DNA from: Minisyncoccota bacterium
GTDB lineage: Bacteria > Patescibacteriota > Minisyncoccia > UBA6257 > Colwellbacteraceae
Direction: 5' to 3'
DNA length: 33,701 nucleotides
Assembly: GCA_036517755.1 (NCBI GenBank)
Contig: DATDUH010000010.1
Location: 1 to 33,701 of the forward strand
Part shown: one piece after another, positions 1 to 7,186 of the stretch
Layout of the letters: every line of letters begins with the position of its first letter
Position numbering within the stretch: the first letter of the stretch is position 1
The notes under the pieces: generated by a model
The model's input: the letters and a program-made list of their open reading frames with translations, nothing else
Database searches by the model: none
What the model was told of the DNA's origin: nothing
Program-made: the position numbers and the translations under genes

Positions 1-1475
1 ATTTCTAGTAAATTTTTAACTTGAGGATCGGACCCGTAAAGCGTTCTTAGCTCGGGTGATTTTTCAAGATAAGCCGAAATCCCTTCGTTACCGAAATTAG
101 CCATAAAAGGAATCAGCTTAGCGACTCGGTCGCAGAAAGAATAAGGTAGTCCCATGGCTCGGCCGGCATCCCGGACCGCCGCCCGAGCGGCCATCGTGCC
201 GAAAGTAATAATTTGAGCCACATATCCCTCGCCGTATTTATCCCTTAAATAGCCGAGGACCTCGTCCCGGCGGTGATCGGCAAAATCAAGATCAATGTCC
301 GGCATCTGAATCCGCTCGGGATTCAAGAATCTTTCAAAAAGGAGTTCGTATTTTAAGGGGTCAACGTCGGTAATATTTAAAAGATAAGAAACAATACTGC
401 CGGCGGCCGAACCCCGGCCCGGGCCAACCGCAATGCCGTGATTTTTCGCCCAGTTAACAAAGTCTTGGACAATTAGGAAGTAGTCGGCAAAGCCGGTTTT
501 TTCAATCACGCCAAGTTCATATTCAAGCCGTTCGCGGGCCTTCTCTTCCGAAGCGAGTCCGCGTTTTGGCAGACCTTCTTCGGCGAGACGACGCAAAAAA
601 GAATTACTATTCTCCTCGCCTTCGGGCAAGGGGTAAACTGGTAAATGGATTTTGTCTAACTCAAATTCGAAATCACATTTTAGAGCCACCTTAACTGTAT
701 TTTCGATCGCTTCAGGCAAGTGTTTGAAAAGCTCAGCCATTTCTTCGGCTGAACGAAAAGAGGCGTCATGCTCTTTAAAAGTTAATCGATCTTCATCATC
801 AAGCCGGTTATTTGTTTGAATCGCTAGAAGAATTTCATGAATCGGTGCATCTTCACGATTTAAATAATGAGAATCTTGGGTAGCAACGAGCGGAATATTA
901 AATTTTTTGGAAAAAGAAACTAAATCTTCATGAAGATCCGGATTATGAGGTTGAATTTCAAGGTAGTAATCTTCGCCAAAAAGTCCGTGGTAATACTTAA
1001 TCGCTTCTTCAGCTCCTTCTTTGTCCCCGGCCCGCAAAAGTTTTCCCACCTCGCCCGAGAAACATCCCGAAAGACAGATTAAACCTTCGTGGTATTTTTC
1101 TAAAAGCTCTTTGTCTATCCTTGGTTTGTAGTAAAAACCTTCGAGGTGAGACTTGGTGATTAACTGGACTAAATTGCGATAACCCTCCTTGTCTTTAACA
1201 AGCAGGGTGAGGTGATATCTGAGGTTGTCTACCTTGGGGTCTTTTGATAAGCGAGAATGACGGGCGACATAGGTTTCGACACCAATGATTGGTTTAATGC
1301 CGGCGGCTTTGGCTTTTTTGTAAAACTCGACCGAACCGTAAAGATTGCCGTGATCAGTTAGGGCCAGGGCCTCCATTCCCAGTTCTTTGGCTCTATCTAC
1401 TAAAGGGCCGATTTTCGAAAGACCATCAAGGAGAGAGTAATGAGAGTGGGTATGCAGATGAACAAATTTCGCCAT
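1..1475 (-). CDS. dnaE: DNA polymerase III alpha subunit, N-terminal ~491 codons; the gene continues past the window start
   Basis: Absent from the ORF track because it is open at the window edge. Reverse-strand translation from ATG 1475-1473 reads MAKFVHLHTHSHYSLLDGLSKIGPLVDRAKELGMEALALTDHGNLYGSVEFYKKAKAAGIKPIIG..., a canonical PHP-domain DnaE N-terminus. The frame stays open to position 1 (...DPQVKNLLE). Confidence 0.9.
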   Translation of the reverse strand, partial: MAKFVHLHTHSHYSLLDGLSKIGPLVDRAKELGMEALALTDHGNLYGSVEFYKKAKAAGIKPIIGVETYVARHSRLSKDPKVDNLRYHLTLLVKDKEGYRNLVQLITKSHLEGFYYKPRIDKELLEKYHEGLICLSGCFSGEVGKLLRAGDKEGAEEAIKYYHGLFGEDYYLEIQPHNPDLHEDLVSFSKKFNIPLVATQDSHYLNREDAPIHEILLAIQTNNRLDDEDRLTFKEHDASFRSAEEMAELFKHLPEAIENTVKVALKCDFEFELDKIHLPVYPLPEGEENSNSFLRRLAEEGLPKRGLASEEKARERLEYELGVIEKTGFADYFLIVQDFVNWAKNHGIAVGPGRGSAAGSIVSYLLNITDVDPLKYELLFERFLNPERIQMPDIDLDFADHRRDEVLGYLRDKYGEGYVAQIITFGTMAARAAVRDAGRAMGLPYSFCDRVAKLIPFMANFGNEGISAYLEKSPELRTLYGSDPQVKNLLE

Positions 1476-1484
1476 TCCAGGCTC

Positions 1485-1513
1485 ATTATAAAGGGCGAAC
1501 CCCATCTCCTCAA
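1485..1513 (-). promoter_or_regulatory. Candidate sigma70-type promoter for dnaE: -35 TTGAGG (1513-1508), 17-nt spacer, -10 TATAAT (1490-1485)
   Basis: Motifs read on the minus strand. The -10 ends only 9 nt before the dnaE ATG. The -35 lies inside the left boundary repeat of the island. Confidence 0.35.
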
Positions 1514-1558
1514 GAACGCCCTCCGCTCGGATAAATAAAGCCTTGAGATGTTCTCTAC
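1507..1558. repeat. Left boundary repeat block of the rnc-dnaE island
   Basis: Three segments are reverse complements of the right block: 1507-1517 tcctcaagaac (3094-3104), 1521-1530 ctccgctcgg (3079-3088) and 1531-1537 ataaata (3071-3077). 1546-1558 agatgttctctac is the exact reverse complement of 2933-2945. Confidence 0.8.
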
Positions 1559-1571
1559 AGAGATAGGGTTT

Positions 1572-1602
1572 TTGACATCGACTTTACAAGAATGTCTATA
1601 TC
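1572..1602 (+). promoter_or_regulatory. Candidate promoter of the high-GC micro-operon: -35 TTGACA (1572-1577), weak -10 (TCTATA 1595-1600 or TATATC 1597-1602)
   Basis: Perfect -35 hexamer and an AT-rich -10 region at 17-19 nt spacing, about 70 nt upstream of the first SD/ATG. It diverges from the dnaE promoter. Confidence 0.35.
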
Positions 1603-1670
1603 TGGCTTAATAATATTATTGAGGCAAAGGATCTCAACAGTACCTTGATTCATTGAGGGGAGGTGAGAAC

Positions 1671-1841
1671 ATGAGAGTAAACTCAAGGCCTACCGTCGTG
1701 GATCTGGCCGACTACAGACACAAGAAGGCCGAAGAGATCCGCGCCGAGGTCCGGAGGGCTCATCGAGGACATCGCCCTTCGGACAACTGTGGCTGCGTTA
1801 AACGCTTACATGAACGCTTGCGGATACTCGAAAGCCGGTGA
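1671..1841 (+). CDS. Hypothetical small basic protein (56 aa), ORF A of the high-GC cassette
   Basis: SD GGAGGTG at 1659-1665 lies 5 nt before ATG 1671. Sequence: MRVNSRPTVVDLADYRHKKAEEIRAEVRRAHRGHRPSDNCGCVKRLHERLRILESR. I recognise no family. Confidence 0.5.
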   Translation: MRVNSRPTVVDLADYRHKKAEEIRAEVRRAHRGHRPSDNCGCVKRLHERLRILESR

Positions 1842-1890
1842 GCCACATAGCGATGCGGCGAGAGCGGCTTCATTATCTGAGGAGGTGAAC

Positions 1891-2106
1891 ATGGCAATCT
1901 ACACCAGAAGTGATGAACTGGATCAGGCGGTGATCGCGGCTGTGCGCGACGCGGGTCATCCACTCCATCCCCGCGAGATCGTCGCTCGGGTCGAGAAGCA
2001 ACTCGAGACCAGAGAGCAGGACATCAGGTTCTGCATCATGGACCTGGAGAATCGCGGCCTGCTCGAGATGACCGCAGACCTGACAACGGGTCTGCCGTCG
2101 AGATGA
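1891..2106 (+). CDS. Hypothetical 71-aa protein, possibly a winged-helix DNA-binding fold, ORF B of the cassette
   Basis: SD GGAGGTG at 1881-1887 lies 3 nt before ATG 1891. Third-position GC is high. Sequence: MAIYTRSDELDQAVIAAVRDAGHPLHPREIVARVEKQLETREQDIRFCIMDLENRGLLEMT... The helix/turn/wing pattern is my reading only. Confidence 0.55.
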   Translation: MAIYTRSDELDQAVIAAVRDAGHPLHPREIVARVEKQLETREQDIRFCIMDLENRGLLEMTADLTTGLPSR

Positions 2107-2115
2107 GGAGGTGTT

Positions 2116-2316
2116 ATGTGCCAGTCGTGGTACGCTGAGCAGGATTTCGTCATCTGGATGGAGGCTCGAGCCGCGGAGCAAGGGCATCGTCCAGGGTGCA
2201 TCGGTATCCGCGCCCTCTGCAGCTGTCCAGGCATGGACAGGGATGTTGCGCCTGACGAAGTTCGGGCGACAAGGGCGGAAGACGTCGAGAGCGCCTCTGT
2301 GCTACGCGGCATGTAG
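2116..2316 (+). CDS. Hypothetical Cys-rich 66-aa protein, ORF C of the cassette
   Basis: SD GGAGGTG at 2107-2113 lies 2 nt before ATG 2116. By eye this frame has higher GC3 than the overlapping 2111 frame. No recognisable family. Confidence 0.45.
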   Translation: MCQSWYAEQDFVIWMEARAAEQGHRPGCIGIRALCSCPGMDRDVAPDEVRATRAEDVESASVLRGM

Positions 2317-2335
2317 ATGCAAAGGAGGTGAACTG

Positions 2336-2665
2336 ATGTACACGGAGACCTGTCCTAACTGCGGACACGAACAGTTCTGCGTGCCTGGCCAGTCGGTCAA
2401 CTGCTCCAAGTGCGGCTCCACGATCGGCGGCTACAGGAAGGAGCCACAGGAAGGAGTGAGAACGGTGAGCTGGAGTGAGCTACTCGGCCCGGAGATCGCG
2501 GTCATCGAGATCGAGCGTCTTGAAGACCAGCGGCTTCCGCGCATCCGTCTGCGCAAGGGCAAGGACTGGGGGACGGGCCTGATGGGTCCAGTCCTGTTCG
2601 AGCTCAGACTCAGCCGGCGTTGGCCCTGGATAGGGTTCGCTCGACCGGCCAGACAGCCATCATAA
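2336..2665 (+). CDS. Hypothetical zinc-ribbon protein (109 aa), ORF D of the cassette
   Basis: SD GGAGGTG at 2324-2330 lies 5 nt before ATG 2336. The N-terminus MYTETCPNCGHEQFCVPGQSVNCSKCGS has a CPNC-x13-CSKC motif. It is the in-frame downstream part of track ORF 2111..2665. Confidence 0.6.
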   Translation: MYTETCPNCGHEQFCVPGQSVNCSKCGSTIGGYRKEPQEGVRTVSWSELLGPEIAVIEIERLEDQRLPRIRLRKGKDWGTGLMGPVLFELRLSRRWPWIGFARPARQPS

Positions 2666-2666
2666 C

Positions 2667-2725
2667 GGCCCGTACGTGGAAGTGTGGGAAACCCACACGC
2701 TCCACGTGCGGGCCTTCCCATTTTT
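2667..2725 (+). terminator. Long intrinsic terminator hairpin closing the cassette
   Basis: ggcccgtacgtggaagtgtggg (2667-2688), loop aaa, then cccacacgctccacgtgcgggcc (2692-2714). The ~22-bp stem has one wobble and one bulge. It is followed by ttcccattttt and begins 2 nt after the ORF D stop. Confidence 0.75.
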
Positions 2726-2743
2726 AAACACCTATAGTTGATT

Positions 2744-2765
2744 GGCTAATTCGTGCGAATTGGCC
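2744..2765. repeat. 22-bp near-palindrome ggctaattcg-tg-cgaattggcc (one mismatch)
   Basis: Read directly. A related word, ctggctaatt, recurs at 2824-2833. Confidence 0.7.
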
Positions 2766-2779
2766 CATGGATAAAAAAC

Positions 2780-2813
2780 AATATTCTAATATTCTGCAGA
2801 ATATTAGAATATT
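2780..2813. repeat. Perfect 34-bp palindrome AATATTCTAATATTCTGCAGAATATTAGAATATT
   Basis: Its reverse complement is identical. It is built from a tandem AATATTCT pair and its mirror image around CTGCAG. Confidence 0.95.
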
Positions 2814-2840
2814 ATATTCAAGACTGGCTAATTACATATC

Positions 2841-2866
2841 TAGGTACGTACCTATTTACGTAAATA
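2841..2866. repeat. Two abutting perfect 14-bp palindromes, TAGGTACGTACCTA (2841-2854) and TATTTACGTAAATA (2853-2866)
   Basis: Both are self-complementary, both centre on TACGTA, and they overlap by 2 nt. Confidence 0.95.
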
Positions 2867-2876
2867 AATTGTAGTA

Positions 2877-2902
2877 CTGCTCAGTAGCATGCTACTGAGC
2901 AG
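2877..2902. repeat. Perfect 26-bp palindrome CTGCTCAGTAGCATGCTACTGAGCAG
   Basis: Its reverse complement is identical. Centre is GCATGC. Confidence 0.95.
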
Positions 2903-2920
2903 CGAGAACGAACTGGGCGA

Positions 2921-3113
2921 GAACTTATTTCCGTAGAGAACATCTTGAAACGAGGCAAATAAATAGTGAGTGAGGGTACTAAGAAGTAGAGGCGCGAACA
3001 TTGTCTGAATCCCGAGCAGACCGAGGTTGAGTTTGAGAGCGGCTCCACCCTTCTTTAGCCGAACGAACGCTATTTATTCCGAGCGGAGAGCCTGTTCTTG
3101 AGGAAATAAGTTC
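2921..3113. repeat. Right boundary repeat block: an imperfect ~45-nt inverted pair (2921-2966 and 3070-3113) around a 103-nt spacer
   Basis: Exact inverted matches: gaacttatttcc 2921-2932 with ggaaataagttc 3102-3113, and aataaatag 2958-2966 with ctatttatt 3070-3078. The middle parts are diverged and share agaaca. Confidence 0.8.
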
Positions 3114-3119
3114 GAGCTC

Positions 3120-3809
3120 CTATATCCGCCGCATTTCCCTCAAGAGGTTTTGGGCCGCTTCAGTTTCAGCTTCTTGCTTGGATTTGCCCTCACCTTCGGA
3201 CTTCAGTTCTTCACCGAAATAGAGGCCAACCCTAAAAATCCTTTCATGGGCAGGACCAGACTCTGAAAGCACTCGATAAGTCGGCGTTACCCTGTGTTCA
3301 CTTTGAGCCGACTCCTGGATTAGGCTTTTCGGATCTTTACCGCCTTCCTCAATTAGGGCCTCGACTCGAGAGAAAATAAAATCATTAATGAATTGTTTGG
3401 CTCTGGAGTATCCCTGGTCGAGATAAATAGCTCCGATTAGGGCTTCGACCGCATCAGCCGAGATGGTCTCCCTGGCTCGACCCGAGAAATTTTTAGTTTC
3501 CCCGCGAGATAAAAGAATTTTTTGATCGAGTTCAATTTCGGTAGCTAAGAGAGCCAGGGTTTTGGTATTGACGAGACCCGCTCGGTAGAGAGTTAGTTCT
3601 CCCTCCTCCTTAGTGGGGAAGTGATTAAAGAGCGCTTCGGTGACAGCTAGTTCTAAGACAGCATCGCCCAGAAACTCCAGGCGTTCATTGTTGCCATATT
3701 GCCATTTCGGATTTTCATTCAAATAAGAGCGGTGAGTCAGGGCTTCTTTAAGAAGACGAAGATCCCTAAAACTTAATTTGATTTTTTCCTGAAGAATCTC
3801 AAGCTCCAT
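3120..3809 (-). CDS. rnc: Ribonuclease III
   Basis: 229-aa ORF with the RNase III signature NERLEFLGDAVLELAV and a C-terminal dsRBD-like region. Confidence 0.95.
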   Translation of the reverse strand: MELEILQEKIKLSFRDLRLLKEALTHRSYLNENPKWQYGNNERLEFLGDAVLELAVTEALFNHFPTKEEGELTLYRAGLVNTKTLALLATEIELDQKILLSRGETKNFSGRARETISADAVEALIGAIYLDQGYSRAKQFINDFIFSRVEALIEEGGKDPKSLIQESAQSEHRVTPTYRVLSESGPAHERIFRVGLYFGEELKSEGEGKSKQEAETEAAQNLLREMRRI

Positions 3810-5062: not shown

Positions 5063-7186
5063 ATGTTTTTAAAGCGGCTCGAACTTCAAGGATTTAAATC
5101 TTTTGCCGATAAGGTCAGTCTCGATTTAACAAGCGGCGTGACGGCTATTGTCGGTCCTAATGGATCGGGTAAATCGAATATTATTGACGGTGTCAGATGG
5201 CTTTTGGGCGAAAGGGATGCGAGACAACTAAGGGGCGGCCGAAGTGAGGATTTAATTTTTGCCGGCACTGAAAAAAGGCCGCGCGTCGGCTTGGCCCAGG
5301 CGTCATTTGTCTTTGATAACGGTTCCGGAGTTTTCCCGCTTGATTTCAAGGAGGTGGTTATTTCGCGCCGCTTGGGCCGGGACGGCGATACCCACTTTTT
5401 CCTTAACAAAAGCGAGGTCAGGTTGAAGGACATTGCCGAGCTTCTGGCGAAAATCAAAGTTGGTCCTCGGGGTCTCGCTGTCGTCAATCAAGGGGAGAGC
5501 GATATTTTTGTGAAAGCCAGCCCACTAGAACGGCGGACGATGATCGAGGAAATCTTGGGATTGAAAGAGTATGAGATCAAAAAAGAAGAGGCTGGCCGCC
5601 GGCTTGAAAATGCCTTTGCTAATCTAGAGAAACTCAAACTTTCCCTTGAAGAGATAAAGCCCCACCTCCGCTTTTTAAAAAAACAGGTCTCGCGTTACGA
5701 GAGTCGGGAAAAATTCGCCGAAGAGTTGAGGCGGCTCGAGAATAATTTTTATGGCCGGCGGTTAGGGGCGATTAAAAAAGGTGAAAAAGAATTAGCGAGC
5801 CGAGAGGCCAAGCTAAAGGAGCAAATTACTCGCCAAGAAAAAGTTTTTACTGAAGCTGAAGTAGAAATGAAAAAAATTGGTGAGCCGGAAACAGAGACAA
5901 ACACCGTTCTAAAGGAGCTTCAGGCGGAAAGGAACTCGATTCTTAGCGAACGCGAGAAACTACAAAAAGAGCTGGGTCGCTTCGAAGTCAGGCTTGAGCT
6001 CGAAGCAAAATCCGGCGGGGGCGAGACTGATTTCCCAAGGATTATTAATGAGGTTAGGCGAGTTGCGAAAAATCTGCTTGAGGAAAATGATCCGGCTAAA
6101 CTAAAAAGCGGGTTGCAGGAGATTTTAAATCTGCTTGAAAACAAAGGGGATTTACCAGAGAAAGCCGATAAAGAGATTGTCGCAGAAATCGAATCAATCA
6201 CTAAAAATTTAAAGAATCTAGATCAGGCTCTTGAGGAGGTTATCCATGAAGAAGAAAAGGCAAGAGGAACAATTATCAGTTTTAACGAGCGTTTTAAATC
6301 AGCTTACGCCCTGGTTGAGTCAGAGCGGAAAAAACTTGAAGCCTTAAAAGAAGAAGAAAATCATTTGGTAATCGAGCGGGAGCGGTTGGTCTCAAGGCAA
6401 ACCGCACTTCACGAGGAATTAGCTCAGATCGGTCGGGATCTTCAATCCCTGCGAGTTGATAGATCCGAGGCCAGCGAACCTATGAACGAGGAGCAGGTTC
6501 TTAAATTGATGCTTAAGCTCCGAGGGGAGCTCGCAAGTATTGGCGAGGTTGACGAGGCCTTAATCGAAGAGGCCAAAGAAACTGAAGAAAGATATAATTT
6601 TCTTTCAGCTGAATCGGTTGATCTCGAGCGAGCAATGGCGGATCTTAAAAAACTAATTAGGGATCTTGAAGAAAAAATTAATAAGGAATTTAATTTGGCG
6701 ATTAAATTAATTAATCAGGAATTTAATAAGTTAGTGAGTTTAATGTTCGGCGGCGGAAAGGCAAGGCTTACTGTCGAGAGCCCTAAAGAGATTAAAGTGG
6801 AAGGCGAAGAGGGAACGGAAGAGCCAAAATCAGAGGAAGCAGTTTCCGTGATTCCTGGAGTGGAAATTGATCTTTCTCTGCCTCGAAAAAGAATTAAAGG
6901 ATTAGATATGCTCTCAGGCGGAGAACGGAGCTTGGTTTCAATCGCTGCGCTTTTCGCCTTAATTTCCGTAAGTTCGCCGCCGTTCTTGGTGCTTGATGAA
7001 ATTGATGTAGCGCTTGATGAGAAAAACGCCAAGCGGTTCGGCGAAATGCTAAAAGATTTATCAGGCAGAACTCAATTTATTGTAGTCACTCATAACCGGG
7101 CCACAATGGAAGTAGCTGATGTGCTCTATGGCGTTACCATGGCCCCGGACGGCACCTCAAAATTAGTTTCGTTAAAGTTAGCGTAG
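5063..7186 (+). CDS. smc: SMC-family chromosome segregation ATPase, unusually short (707 aa)
   Basis: The N-terminal head has MFLKRLELQGFKSFADK...GPNGSGKSNIIDGVRWLLGE. The C-terminal head has LSGGERSLVSIAALFALI...FLVLDEIDVALD...QFIVVTHNRATMEVADVLYGVTM. The middle is heptad-like and K/E-rich. Confidence 0.85.
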   Translation: MFLKRLELQGFKSFADKVSLDLTSGVTAIVGPNGSGKSNIIDGVRWLLGERDARQLRGGRSEDLIFAGTEKRPRVGLAQASFVFDNGSGVFPLDFKEVVISRRLGRDGDTHFFLNKSEVRLKDIAELLAKIKVGPRGLAVVNQGESDIFVKASPLERRTMIEEILGLKEYEIKKEEAGRRLENAFANLEKLKLSLEEIKPHLRFLKKQVSRYESREKFAEELRRLENNFYGRRLGAIKKGEKELASREAKLKEQITRQEKVFTEAEVEMKKIGEPETETNTVLKELQAERNSILSEREKLQKELGRFEVRLELEAKSGGGETDFPRIINEVRRVAKNLLEENDPAKLKSGLQEILNLLENKGDLPEKADKEIVAEIESITKNLKNLDQALEEVIHEEEKARGTIISFNERFKSAYALVESERKKLEALKEEENHLVIERERLVSRQTALHEELAQIGRDLQSLRVDRSEASEPMNEEQVLKLMLKLRGELASIGEVDEALIEEAKETEERYNFLSAESVDLERAMADLKKLIRDLEEKINKEFNLAIKLINQEFNKLVSLMFGGGKARLTVESPKEIKVEGEEGTEEPKSEEAVSVIPGVEIDLSLPRKRIKGLDMLSGGERSLVSIAALFALISVSSPPFLVLDEIDVALDEKNAKRFGEMLKDLSGRTQFIVVTHNRATMEVADVLYGVTMAPDGTSKLVSLKLA

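What the first reader, a model, noticed from the sequence alone, without database searches (positions are those of the whole stretch)
1560..2725. Self-contained high-GC four-ORF micro-operon of unknown function between rnc and dnaE
G+C shifts sharply here. Hand counts of single 60-nt lines give 42/60 (2161-2220) and 39/60 (1741-1800) inside the block, against 29/60 in smc (5101-5160) and 15/60 just downstream (2761-2820). The block lies on the opposite strand to both neighbours. It has a perfect TTGACA -35 box (1572) and four small ORFs of 56, 71, 66 and 109 aa. Each ORF is preceded by the identical SD heptamer GGAGGTG (1659, 1881, 2107, 2324), ending 2-5 nt before its ATG. Inter-ORF gaps are 49, 9 and 19 nt, and a ~22-bp-stem terminator begins 2 nt after the last stop. 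ORF B looks like a small winged-helix DNA binder. ORF D opens with a CPNC-x13-CSKC zinc ribbon. ORF A is very basic and ORF C is Cys-rich. I recognise no integrase, transposase, RT, nuclease or known toxin/antitoxin family. It therefore looks like a horizontally acquired, autonomously expressed module (defence, addiction or regulatory cassette) that I cannot match to a described system.
Basis: partly seen in the sequence, partly recalled or inferred. Interest (0 to 1): 0.85.

Follow-up and report, generated by a model that had tools for sequence, protein, structure and literature searches.

The report
Foreign gene cassette between rnc and dnaE
A 1.1-kb block of four small, orphan, high-GC genes with its own promoter region and terminator hairpin has been inserted backwards between two core genes of a tiny groundwater bacterium, and a related genome has different genes between homologous control sequences at the same spot, so the site behaves like a swappable expression slot.

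Summary
The block at 1583-2725 is real, is assembled identically in at least 17 independent contigs, and is the only GC island in the window (up to 0.64 against 0.47 ± 0.03). It has four ORFs, each with the SD GGAGGTG, and a 21-bp hairpin 2 nt after the last stop. Host genes here have almost no SD.

It is an insertion. The sister genome L016 has 42 nt between rnc and dnaE, and the outgroup L018 is also empty. A third relative, L017 (Candidatus Colwellbacteria), has a different high-GC cargo at the same site in the same antisense orientation. The two inserts are homologous only from the -35 TTTACA to the SD (85%) and across the terminator (76%).

The two cargos share codon usage (r = 0.77), and neither matches its host (r about 0). 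The L017 cargo family sits next to thymidylate synthase in two phage-like contigs. The window's four proteins are orphans. Only the C-terminal domain of ORF D has one relative.

Best reading: a moron-like accessory cassette in a chromosomal hot spot, exchanged through conserved regulatory ends, as with PeSL cassettes of T4-like phages. The function of the cargo is unknown. Only two occupied sites are known, so the exchange mechanism is inferred.

The parts
1..1475 (-). 5' part of dnaE (DNA polymerase III alpha). The start codon ATG is at 1475..1473.
   Evidence: Translation MAKFVHLHTHSHYSLLDG.... Pfam PHP/DNA_pol3_alpha on the full gene in the population contigs.
1485..1513 (-). Native dnaE promoter, TTGAGG-17-TATAAT. 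The -10 is only 9 nt from the ATG.
   Evidence: Promoter scan scored 10/12. The same motif occupies the same place in L016 and L017.
1504..1565 (-). Segment L: a hairpin-forming inverted copy of the base of hairpin R. Its outer 10-14 nt overlap the native dnaE -35.
   Evidence: Inverted repeats I2, I8 and I9. Alignment score 47 against shuffles 16.3 ± 2.8, maximum 30. Folds at -29.7 kcal/mol, z = -3.9 on the - strand, against -17.6 on the + strand. Absent from L016, L017 and L018.
1583..1665 (+). Conserved promoter/leader block of the cassette. The -35 candidate is TTTACA at 1584-1589. The leader contains TTGAG/CTCAA stems. The first SD, GGAGGTG, is at 1659-1665.
   Evidence: 85% identical to L017 7853-7789 over 66 nt. 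Homology starts at TTTACA and ends at the SD. It also contains a - strand promoter-like site, TTGAGA-16-TATTAT, at 1637..1610.
1671..1841 (+). ORF A: 56 aa, pI 10.8, with a CxC motif. Orphan.
   Evidence: No family or PDB match. Its coding signal is the weakest of the four (GC3 0.61).
1891..2106 (+). ORF B: 71 aa, acidic and helical. Possibly a winged-helix or other DNA-binding protein. Orphan.
   Evidence: GC3 0.72. Sub-threshold hits to wHTH families: Pfam E about 0.1 and the PADLOC CARF wHTH region at E = 0.002. The AF2 single-sequence model has pLDDT 75 and two helices.
2116..2316 (+). ORF C: 66 aa, acidic, four Cys. Orphan.
   Evidence: GC3 0.70. No matches.
2336..2665 (+). ORF D: 109 aa. 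An N-terminal C4 zinc ribbon (CPNC-x13-CSKC) is followed by a C-terminal domain (residues 48-105) that has one standalone relative.
   Evidence: Sub-threshold zinc-ribbon hits to S27e, Rpb12 and L37ae. Full HMMER search of 1.84 billion representatives found P0016, 68 aa, 50% identical, E = 1.6e-7. The AF2 model has pLDDT 57.5, with the ribbon at 70-80. No fold match.
2667..2725 (+). Conserved terminator: a 21-bp two-tier hairpin (2667-2714) plus the tail TTCCCATTTTT.
   Evidence: -43.1 kcal/mol, z = -9.3. The L017 counterpart folds at -33 kcal/mol, z = -3.8. 76% identity with the same architecture and an identical tail.
2775..2902 (.). AT-rich cluster of four perfect palindromes, specific to the window lineage. 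The first, read on the - strand, is followed by TTTTTT and may terminate rnc transcripts.
   Evidence: I1, I4, I11. These are the only such palindromes in the 33.7-kb window. No copy in any fetched relative.
2921..3113 (+). Hairpin R: a long imperfect hairpin abutting the rnc stop codon. Its 3' arm carries an inverted copy of the dnaE -35 region.
   Evidence: -72.2 kcal/mol, z = -4.2 on the + strand, against -54.7 kcal/mol, z = -1.5 on the - strand. Polymorphic in the population: a 43-nt deletion in L005 and 3 SNPs in L007. No Rfam match.
3120..3809 (-). rnc (RNase III), the native right-hand neighbour.
   Evidence: Pfam Ribonuclease_3 and dsrm. 91% identical to L016 and 86% identical to L017.

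Best explanation
The block is a foreign accessory-gene cassette of the kind phage biologists call a 'moron'. It sits antisense in a recombination hot spot between the rnc stop codon and the dnaE promoter of a Colwellbacteria-like (Patescibacteria/CPR) chromosome.

It appears to be its own transcription unit. A promoter region with -35 TTTACA precedes a roughly 70-nt leader. Then come four tightly packed ORFs, each with a full-strength SD, and a very stable hairpin terminator.

The regulatory ends act as conserved linkers. In a related genome the same ends enclose unrelated cargo. So cargo is most likely gained and replaced by homologous recombination within these ends (or within the flanking rnc and dnaE genes). 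The donor pool is high-GC, uses strong SDs and is at least partly phage-derived. No dedicated integrase is involved.

The four products are small orphan proteins. Three look like nucleic-acid or metal binders: basic ORF A, helical ORF B and the zinc ribbon of ORF D. My best guess is that they act as a small regulatory or phage-conflict module that benefits the host or the donor element.

Shown: foreign origin, the insertion site, the conserved ends and the swapped cargo. Inferred: the promoter assignment, the recombination mechanism, the phage origin of this particular cargo, and any function.
For: - Insertion: the sister genome L016 (86% nt identity) has 42 nt between rnc and dnaE, and the outgroup L018 is also empty.
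- Same site, different cargo: L017 has a 1254-nt insert at GC 0.59. It starts right after the rnc stop and ends about 10 nt before the dnaE -35. Its ORFs are antisense, as in the window.
- Homology only at the ends: leader 85% over 66 nt, terminator 76% over 62 nt, and nothing in the cargo by blastn or tblastx. The homology blocks begin at the -35 and end at the SD, and they run from the stem base to the end of the T-run.
- Foreignness: the block is the only GC island in 33.7 kb. GC3 is 0.70-0.75 against 0.43-0.53 in host genes. RSCU correlates between the two cargos (r = 0.77) but not between cargo and host (r = -0.10 to 0.13). Tetranucleotide r is 0.65 between the inserts and about 0 against the hosts.
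- SD: a 7-nt SD precedes all four ORFs. The best core for 27 host ORFs is at most 5 nt.
- Phage link for the locus: homologs of the L017 277-aa cargo sit beside ThyX in a phage-like 72-kb contig and in an IMG/VR viral contig with a phage DNA polymerase.
- Not a chimera: at least 17 contigs from independent assemblies share the junctions.
- The definitions of moron and PeSL are taken from PMC2839356.
Against: - Only two occupied sites are known. The leader was found nowhere else: 0 hits in viral contigs, and only this organism in metagenome contigs. So a pool of cassettes with these ends is inferred, not observed.
- Leader and terminator divergence (85% and 76%) is about the same as backbone divergence (79%). 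This equally fits a single old insertion inherited vertically, lost in L016 and later given new cargo.
- No + strand promoter passes a sigma-70 consensus scan.
- The terminator's T-run is displaced from the stem.
- The window's own cargo has no viral relative.
- The four population SNPs in ORF D are all non-synonymous singletons. That gives no sign of purifying selection, although the numbers are too small to test.
- The L/R inverted hairpins and the palindrome cluster are not explained by this model.
Confidence: 0.55

Rival explanations
1. There was one old insertion and no ongoing mobility. A single cassette entered the rnc-dnaE gap in the common ancestor of the window, L016 and L017. It was cleanly deleted, or replaced by an empty allele, in L016. 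Its coding part was overwritten once in one lineage. The conserved ends are then ordinary vertically inherited regulatory DNA under constraint.
For: Divergence of the ends (85% and 76%) is close to backbone divergence (79%). The ends occur nowhere else in the scanned collections. The leader is AT-rich like host spacers.
Against: It needs three events (gain, precise loss, cargo replacement) on a four-taxon tree. The replacement still requires a donor with matching ends or an illegitimate event landing exactly at the SD and the terminator stem. Both cargos keep a strongly foreign, mutually similar codon usage with no visible amelioration.
Confidence: 0.25
2. It is a non-autonomous mobile element bounded by terminal inverted hairpins (L at 1504-1565, R at 2921-3113). 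An unknown enzyme encoded elsewhere moved it in trans. The four ORFs are passengers.
For: The L/R inverted similarity is far above chance (score 47 against a shuffle maximum of 30). Each end folds best on its outward-reading strand. No recombinase is encoded inside.
Against: The outermost part of the repeat is native dnaE promoter sequence that is also present at the empty site. There is no target-site duplication or flanking direct repeat. There is no second copy of L or R in the window or in any fetched locus. L017 has the cassette without L or R. R is polymorphic in the population.
Confidence: 0.08
3. It is a toxin-antitoxin or addiction module, or a small anti-phage defence system. The four ORFs form alternating basic/acidic pairs (A pI 10.8 with B pI 5.0, and C pI 4.7 with D pI 9.0), and the module stabilises itself or protects the host.
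For: The size, the tight operon, the charge pairing, the foreign origin, and the location in a variable hot spot.
Against: There is no significant hit to any PADLOC, Pfam, NCBIfam or PHROG family. No toxin fold was recognised. The gene set is not conserved as a set anywhere: only one domain of ORF D has a single relative.
Confidence: 0.1
4. It is an assembly artefact or contaminant DNA joined to a CPR contig.
For: The abrupt GC change and the foreign codon usage.
Against: Both junctions are identical in at least 17 contigs from different samples, assemblers and archives. An independent MAG (L017) has an analogous insert at the same site.
Confidence: 0.01

Closest known systems
Phage 'morons' (Hendrix and colleagues 2000, as summarised in PMC2839356)
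   Same: Extra genes sit between two genes that are adjacent in relatives. They bring their own promoter and terminator. They are usually oriented against the surrounding transcription. They are orphans and differ in nucleotide composition from their neighbours.
   Different: Morons are defined in phage and prophage genomes. This cassette sits between core genes of a cellular CPR chromosome, with no prophage around it. Morons are usually single genes, and here there are four. [quoted passage not shown]
PeSL mobile regulatory cassettes of T4-like phages RB49 and phi1 (Arbiol et al. 2010, PMC2839356)
   Same: Conserved promoter-plus-stem-loop units flank variable orphan ORFs in hyperplastic regions. 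Cargo is inserted, deleted or replaced by recombination between these regulatory linkers without a dedicated integrase. The cassettes are transcriptionally insulated.
   Different: A PeSL is one composite motif (stem-loop plus early promoter) repeated about 50 times per phage genome. Here the promoter/leader and the terminator are two separate blocks seen once per genome, in two genomes. There is no sequence similarity to PeSLs. No mini-circle or other intermediate has been observed. The host is a bacterium, not a phage.
Integron gene cassettes
   Same: Small, often orphan ORFs are captured at a fixed chromosomal site and expressed from a resident promoter. The cargo varies between relatives.
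   Different: There is no intI nearby and no attC between ORFs. The 193-nt hairpin R lacks the RYYYAAC/GTTRRRY cores. The whole multi-ORF unit is swapped rather than single promoterless cassettes.
Chromosomal hot spots or variable islets between conserved core genes (for example defence-island hot spots)
   Same: The same intergenic site between conserved genes holds different foreign cargo in related genomes and is empty in others.
   Different: Typical hot-spot cargo is larger, carries recognisable defence or mobility genes, and shares no regulatory ends between alternatives.

Membership tests
Moron (phage accessory transcription unit) | Present between two genes that are adjacent in close relatives | tested here: met
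   rnc and dnaE are 42 nt apart in L016 and about 66-92 nt apart in L018.
Moron (phage accessory transcription unit) | Own promoter upstream and own factor-independent terminator downstream | tested here: inconclusive
   A strong conserved hairpin with a T-run is present, but the T-run is displaced 6 nt from the stem. A conserved TTTACA -35 candidate is present, but no + strand site passes the consensus scan. There are no transcript data.
Moron (phage accessory transcription unit) | Nucleotide composition differs from the neighbours | tested here: met
   GC 0.60-0.64 against 0.47, GC3 0.70-0.75 against about 0.45, and RSCU r about 0 against the host.
Moron (phage accessory transcription unit) | Resides in a phage or prophage genome | tested here: not met
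   The flanks are dnaE, thrS, miaA, gatB, rnc, nusB, rnhB, smc and ribosomal protein genes, with no phage genes. So it works like a moron but is not one in the strict sense.
PeSL-type mobile regulatory cassette | Conserved promoter/stem-loop sequences flank different cargo in related genomes | tested here: met
   Leader 85% and terminator 76% identical, cargo unrelated. This rests on two genomes only.
PeSL-type mobile regulatory cassette | The motif is repeated many times within a genome, giving sites for recombination | tested here: not met
   There is no second copy of the leader or terminator in the 33.7-kb window or in the fetched parts of the relatives. No other copy was found in the viral or metagenome scans. 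The complete genomes were not available.
PeSL-type mobile regulatory cassette | Excised circular intermediates (mini-circles) | not testable with these tools
   This needs reads or PCR across a leader-terminator junction.
Integron / attC cassette array | An attC recombination site follows each cassette, with intI nearby | tested here: not met
   The inter-ORF gaps are 9-49 nt with no hairpins. No integrase was found in the window. R lacks the attC core motifs, judged by reading.
Type II toxin-antitoxin or known defence system | At least one component matches a known toxin, antitoxin or defence family | tested here: not met
   No significant hit in Pfam, NCBIfam, PADLOC or PHROGs.
IS/MITE-type transposable element | Terminal inverted repeats with a target-site duplication and multiple genomic copies | tested here: not met
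   An inverted L/R repeat is present, but there is no TSD, part of the repeat is native promoter sequence, and no other copies were found.

The most novel reading that the evidence does not exclude
CPR bacteria of this lineage keep a chromosomal 'expression dock' between rnc and dnaE. It consists of a fixed promoter/leader and terminator. Unrelated foreign coding blocks, phage-derived and high in GC, are exchanged into it by recombination in the regulatory ends, without an integrase. This would be a cellular counterpart of phage PeSL/moron shuffling. The authors of the PeSL paper said there was as yet no evidence for this kind of plasticity in cellular organisms.
Probability: 0.25. Interest if true: 0.7.

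Novelty: new variant of a known kind. Interest (0 to 1): 0.5.

Why it matters
CPR/Patescibacteria have tiny, streamlined genomes, and little is known about how they acquire and express foreign genes. This case shows a foreign, orphan operon wedged between two core genes. At the same site, a second lineage holds different cargo between homologous control sequences.

If that pattern holds in more genomes, it would show that regulatory-linker-mediated cassette exchange also operates in a bacterial chromosome. So far it has been described only for T4-like phages. It would also point to a defined locus for finding new phage-conflict genes in CPR bacteria.

The cassette further contrasts a host that barely uses Shine-Dalgarno sequences with cargo that uses perfect ones. 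This is a natural test case for translation initiation in these organisms.

If the pattern does not hold, this is an ordinary small genomic islet of orphan genes.

Tried and rejected
- **Rfam.** A gathering-threshold search of the whole window and a permissive search of 1400-3200 found only tRNAs and chance miRNA-like hits on the palindromes. Hairpin R is therefore not a known RNA such as 6S.
- **Protein families.** Pfam, PHROGs, PADLOC and NCBIfam gave nothing significant for the four ORFs or the two L017 cargo proteins.
- **Word-indexed protein search.** ORF D found only itself. ORFs A, B and C concatenated found nothing. The self proteins were not retrieved in that search either, so it may be insensitive to such short proteins.
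- **Full HMMER search of ORF D.** It found one true relative, P0016, plus zinc-ribbon repeats in long unrelated proteins.
- **tblastn against annotated phages and plasmids.** Nothing.
- **Viral contig scan with the ORF D alignment.** Nothing.
- **Terminator 16-mer in viral contigs.** Nine hits, all chance matches in unrelated contexts.
- **Leader pattern in metagenome contigs.** Only the window's own organism, plus four chance hits inside coding sequence.
- **Structure prediction.** ORF B gave pLDDT 75 with two helices only. ORF D gave pLDDT 57.5. Foldseek against the PDB gave no match with E below 1. PDB sequence searches gave nothing below E = 0.1.
- **Population dN/dS.** Too few SNPs.
- **More occupancy states through 90% clusters of Rnc and NusB.** Only the same population and L016 turned up.
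- **Other ORFs of contig L115.** They do not resemble ORFs A-C.
- **Considered and rejected.** Integron/attC: no intI, no attC cores, and the unit has its own promoter. A Xer/dif-type integrative element: no flanking direct repeats of a dif-like site. A prophage remnant or integrated plasmid: no replication, integration or structural gene.
Full report
**1. The observation**

There are four + strand ORFs: A at 1671-1841, B at 1891-2106, C at 2116-2316 and D at 2336-2665. They lie between dnaE (- strand, start codon at 1475) and rnc (- strand, 3120-3809).

GGAGGTG occurs at 1659, 1881, 2107 and 2324, which is 2-5 nt before each ATG. A 21-pair hairpin spans 2667-2714 (-43.1 kcal/mol, z = -9.3).

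GC in 200-300-nt windows reaches 0.60-0.64 inside the block. The rest of the 33.7-kb window averages 0.470 ± 0.034 and never exceeds 0.56.

ORFs B, C and D show the codon-position signature of real genes in their annotated frames, with GC3 of 0.70-0.75 and GC2 lowest. Host genes have GC3 of 0.43-0.53. ORF A is less clear.

The same 1.8 kb, junctions included, is found at 99.7-100% identity in at least 17 contigs from ENA, JGI and Logan assemblies of different samples.

**2. Corrections to the observation**

- The 'perfect' TTGACA at 1572 has no usable -10 and is not conserved in the related insert. Homology with that insert begins at TTTACA (1584-1589).
- The T-run lies 6 nt beyond the stem, so the simple terminator scan does not call it. 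The tail CCTTCCCATTTTTA is nevertheless identical in the related insert.
- The winged-helix call for ORF B rests on sub-threshold hits only, and a single-sequence model gave just two helices.

**3. It is an insertion into a hot spot**

A scan of one genome per species with the RNase III protein found three relatives in which rnc is followed by dnaE. Flanking-gene identities give the tree ((window, L016), L017), L018. Nucleotide identity to the window is 86%, 79% and 67% respectively.

L016 has only 42 nt between the rnc stop and the dnaE ATG, and these hold the dnaE promoter TTGAGG-18-TATAAT. L018 is also empty.

L017, a Candidatus Colwellbacteria MAG, carries a 1254-nt insert at GC 0.59 at the same position. 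It starts directly after the rnc stop and ends about 10 nt before the dnaE -35. It holds two ORFs, of 56 and 277 aa, antisense to rnc and dnaE exactly as in the window.

**4. The two inserts share only their regulatory ends**

blastn and tblastx between the inserts detect two homologous pieces:
- window 1598-1663 with L017 7853-7789, 85% over 66 nt;
- window 2665-2726 with L017 6743-6688, 76% over 62 nt.

The alignments show that the first block runs from TTTACA to the first SD. The second runs from the base of the terminator stem to the end of the T-run. Everything between these blocks, that is the coding sequence, is unrelated.

The two cargos nevertheless resemble each other in codon usage (RSCU r = 0.77) and tetranucleotide frequencies (r = 0.65). 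Neither correlates with its host (r between -0.13 and 0.13), while the two hosts correlate with each other at 0.75 and 0.95. Some of the cargo-cargo similarity simply reflects equal GC content.

The translation signals are foreign too. The best SD core is at most 5 nt for 27 host ORFs of at least 120 aa, even when each is given the best of all candidate starts in its first 50 codons. All four cassette ORFs, and the second L017 ORF, have GGAGGTG.

**5. Where the cargo comes from**

The window's proteins are orphans. No curated family matches. Nothing was found in annotated phages or plasmids or in PDB sequences.

A full HMMER search of ORF D against 1.84 billion representatives found one true relative. 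This is P0016, a 68-aa protein 50% identical to residues 48-105 (E = 1.6e-7). It is the last gene of an array of small ORFs on a 1.7-kb contig at about 55% GC. None of the other ORFs there resembles A-C. The N-terminus of ORF D is a C4 zinc ribbon by motif and by sub-threshold matches. The models were too weak for fold assignment.

The L017 277-aa cargo is more informative. It belongs to an uncharacterised family with invariant GGTDERPF, KRQGDIF, TRHLL and APDH motifs. Members lie next to thymidylate synthase in a phage-like 72-kb contig that also encodes dCMP deaminase, dUTPase, PNKP, UDG and a helicase. Another member lies in an IMG/VR viral contig with a phage DNA polymerase. At least one cargo of this site is therefore a phage-type gene.

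**6. How it most likely works**

The anatomy has three features:
- a self-contained unit with its own promoter region, strong SDs and terminator;
- an antisense position between two genes that are adjacent in relatives;
- a composition unlike the neighbours.

This is the description of a phage moron. The conservation of the regulatory ends around swapped orphan cargo parallels the PeSL 'mobile regulatory cassettes' of T4-like phages. There, recombination between promoter/stem-loop linkers inserts, deletes and replaces ORFans without an integrase (PMC2839356).

I therefore propose that the rnc-dnaE gap of this lineage is a cassette slot. Cargo is exchanged by homologous recombination in the conserved ends or in the flanking core genes, and is drawn from a high-GC, SD-using, partly phage-derived pool.

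The foreign origin, the site, the conserved ends and the cargo difference are shown. The promoter assignment, the recombination route and the origin of this particular cargo are inferred.

For function I can only offer a best guess from composition: a small regulatory or phage-conflict module built from nucleic-acid or metal-binding proteins (basic A, helical B, Cys-rich C, zinc-ribbon D).

**7. Limits and rivals**

Only two occupied sites exist in the data. The leader pattern occurs nowhere else in the viral or metagenome collections. The divergence of the ends is about that of the backbone.

A single old insertion that was lost in L016 and had its cargo overwritten once therefore remains a serious alternative (probability 0.25). 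It needs more events, and it still needs a donor or a very precise replacement.

A hairpin-ended non-autonomous transposon (0.08), a toxin-antitoxin or defence module (0.10) and an assembly artefact (0.01) are less likely, for the reasons given under rival explanations.

**8. Features not explained**

The window lineage has about 390 extra non-coding bases between the cassette terminator and rnc. They hold four perfect palindromes (2775-2902) and a 193-nt hairpin R (2921-3113). R folds at -72 kcal/mol, z = -4.2 on the + strand.

A 62-nt segment L (1504-1565) upstream of the cassette promoter is an inverted, internally deleted copy of the base of R (score 47 against a shuffle maximum of 30). 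The outer 10-14 nt of this repeat are native dnaE -35 sequence, so R places an inverted copy of promoter sequence next to the rnc stop. There is no target-site duplication, and no other copy was found.

R is the most polymorphic part of the locus. These hairpins may insulate the convergent rnc and cassette transcripts. The first palindrome is followed by TTTTTT when read on the - strand. Alternatively they may be scars of the insertion event. I cannot decide between these.

The conserved leader also contains a - strand promoter-like site, TTGAGA-16-TATTAT, which is kept in L017 as TTGAGA-16-TAACAT. Part of its conservation could therefore serve dnaE expression.

**9. Verdict**

The finding is real and the 'foreign autonomous module' reading is right, but the block is not unmatched. 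It is a moron-like cassette in a chromosomal hot spot, with PeSL-like conserved regulatory ends, in a CPR bacterium. That makes it a new variant of a known kind, carrying orphan cargo of unknown function. Interest is moderate at 0.5. It would rise if more cargos are found between the same ends.

Noticed in passing
whole window; 27 ORFs of at least 120 aa: Host genes have almost no Shine-Dalgarno motif. The best core is 5 nt or less, even when each gene is given the best of all candidate starts in its first 50 codons. The cassette ORFs all carry the 7-nt GGAGGTG.
   Followed up: partly
window 1475-1513 (- strand); L016 6691-6735; L017 7917-7947: The dnaE -10 box TATAAT lies only 9 nt from the ATG in all three genomes, so dnaE mRNA is probably leaderless or nearly so.
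   Followed up: no
window 1610-1637 (- strand): There is a promoter-like site, TTGAGA-16-TATTAT (10/12), inside the conserved cassette leader but pointing toward dnaE. It is kept in L017 as TTGAGA-16-TAACAT. It may be a second dnaE promoter brought in by the cassette.
   Followed up: partly
window 2775-2902: Four perfect palindromes lie within 130 nt, two of them centred on CTGCAG and GCATGC. They are the only such palindromes in the 33.7-kb window and are absent from relatives.
   Followed up: partly
window 3038-3080 (L005) and 3040, 3043, 3052 (L007): Hairpin R is the most polymorphic part of the locus in the population. One contig has a 43-nt deletion between GAGCGG repeats, and another has three clustered SNPs.
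   Followed up: partly
L017 6751-7584 (- strand); L113 6001-6669; L116 4828-5484: An uncharacterised protein family of about 220-277 aa has invariant GGTDERPF, KRQGDIF, TRHLL and APDH motifs and no Pfam or PDB match. It lies beside thymidylate synthase in two phage-like contigs. Each member is about 7 GC points richer than its neighbours.
   Followed up: partly
L017 7945-8499 and 8441-11041: dnaE of the Colwellbacteria MAG is split into two overlapping ORFs. This is either a frameshift or an assembly error.
   Followed up: no
window 9-36: Ten differences from the other contigs of the same population are clustered in the first 36 bases of the window, inside dnaE. This is probably a strain variant or an end-of-contig artefact.
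   Followed up: no
L115 1-1690: The only relative of the ORF D C-terminal domain ends an array of small ORFs: two membrane-like proteins and an HTH-like 74-aa protein. The contig is short (1.7 kb, about 55% GC) and is probably a fragment of a mobile element or phage.
   Followed up: partly
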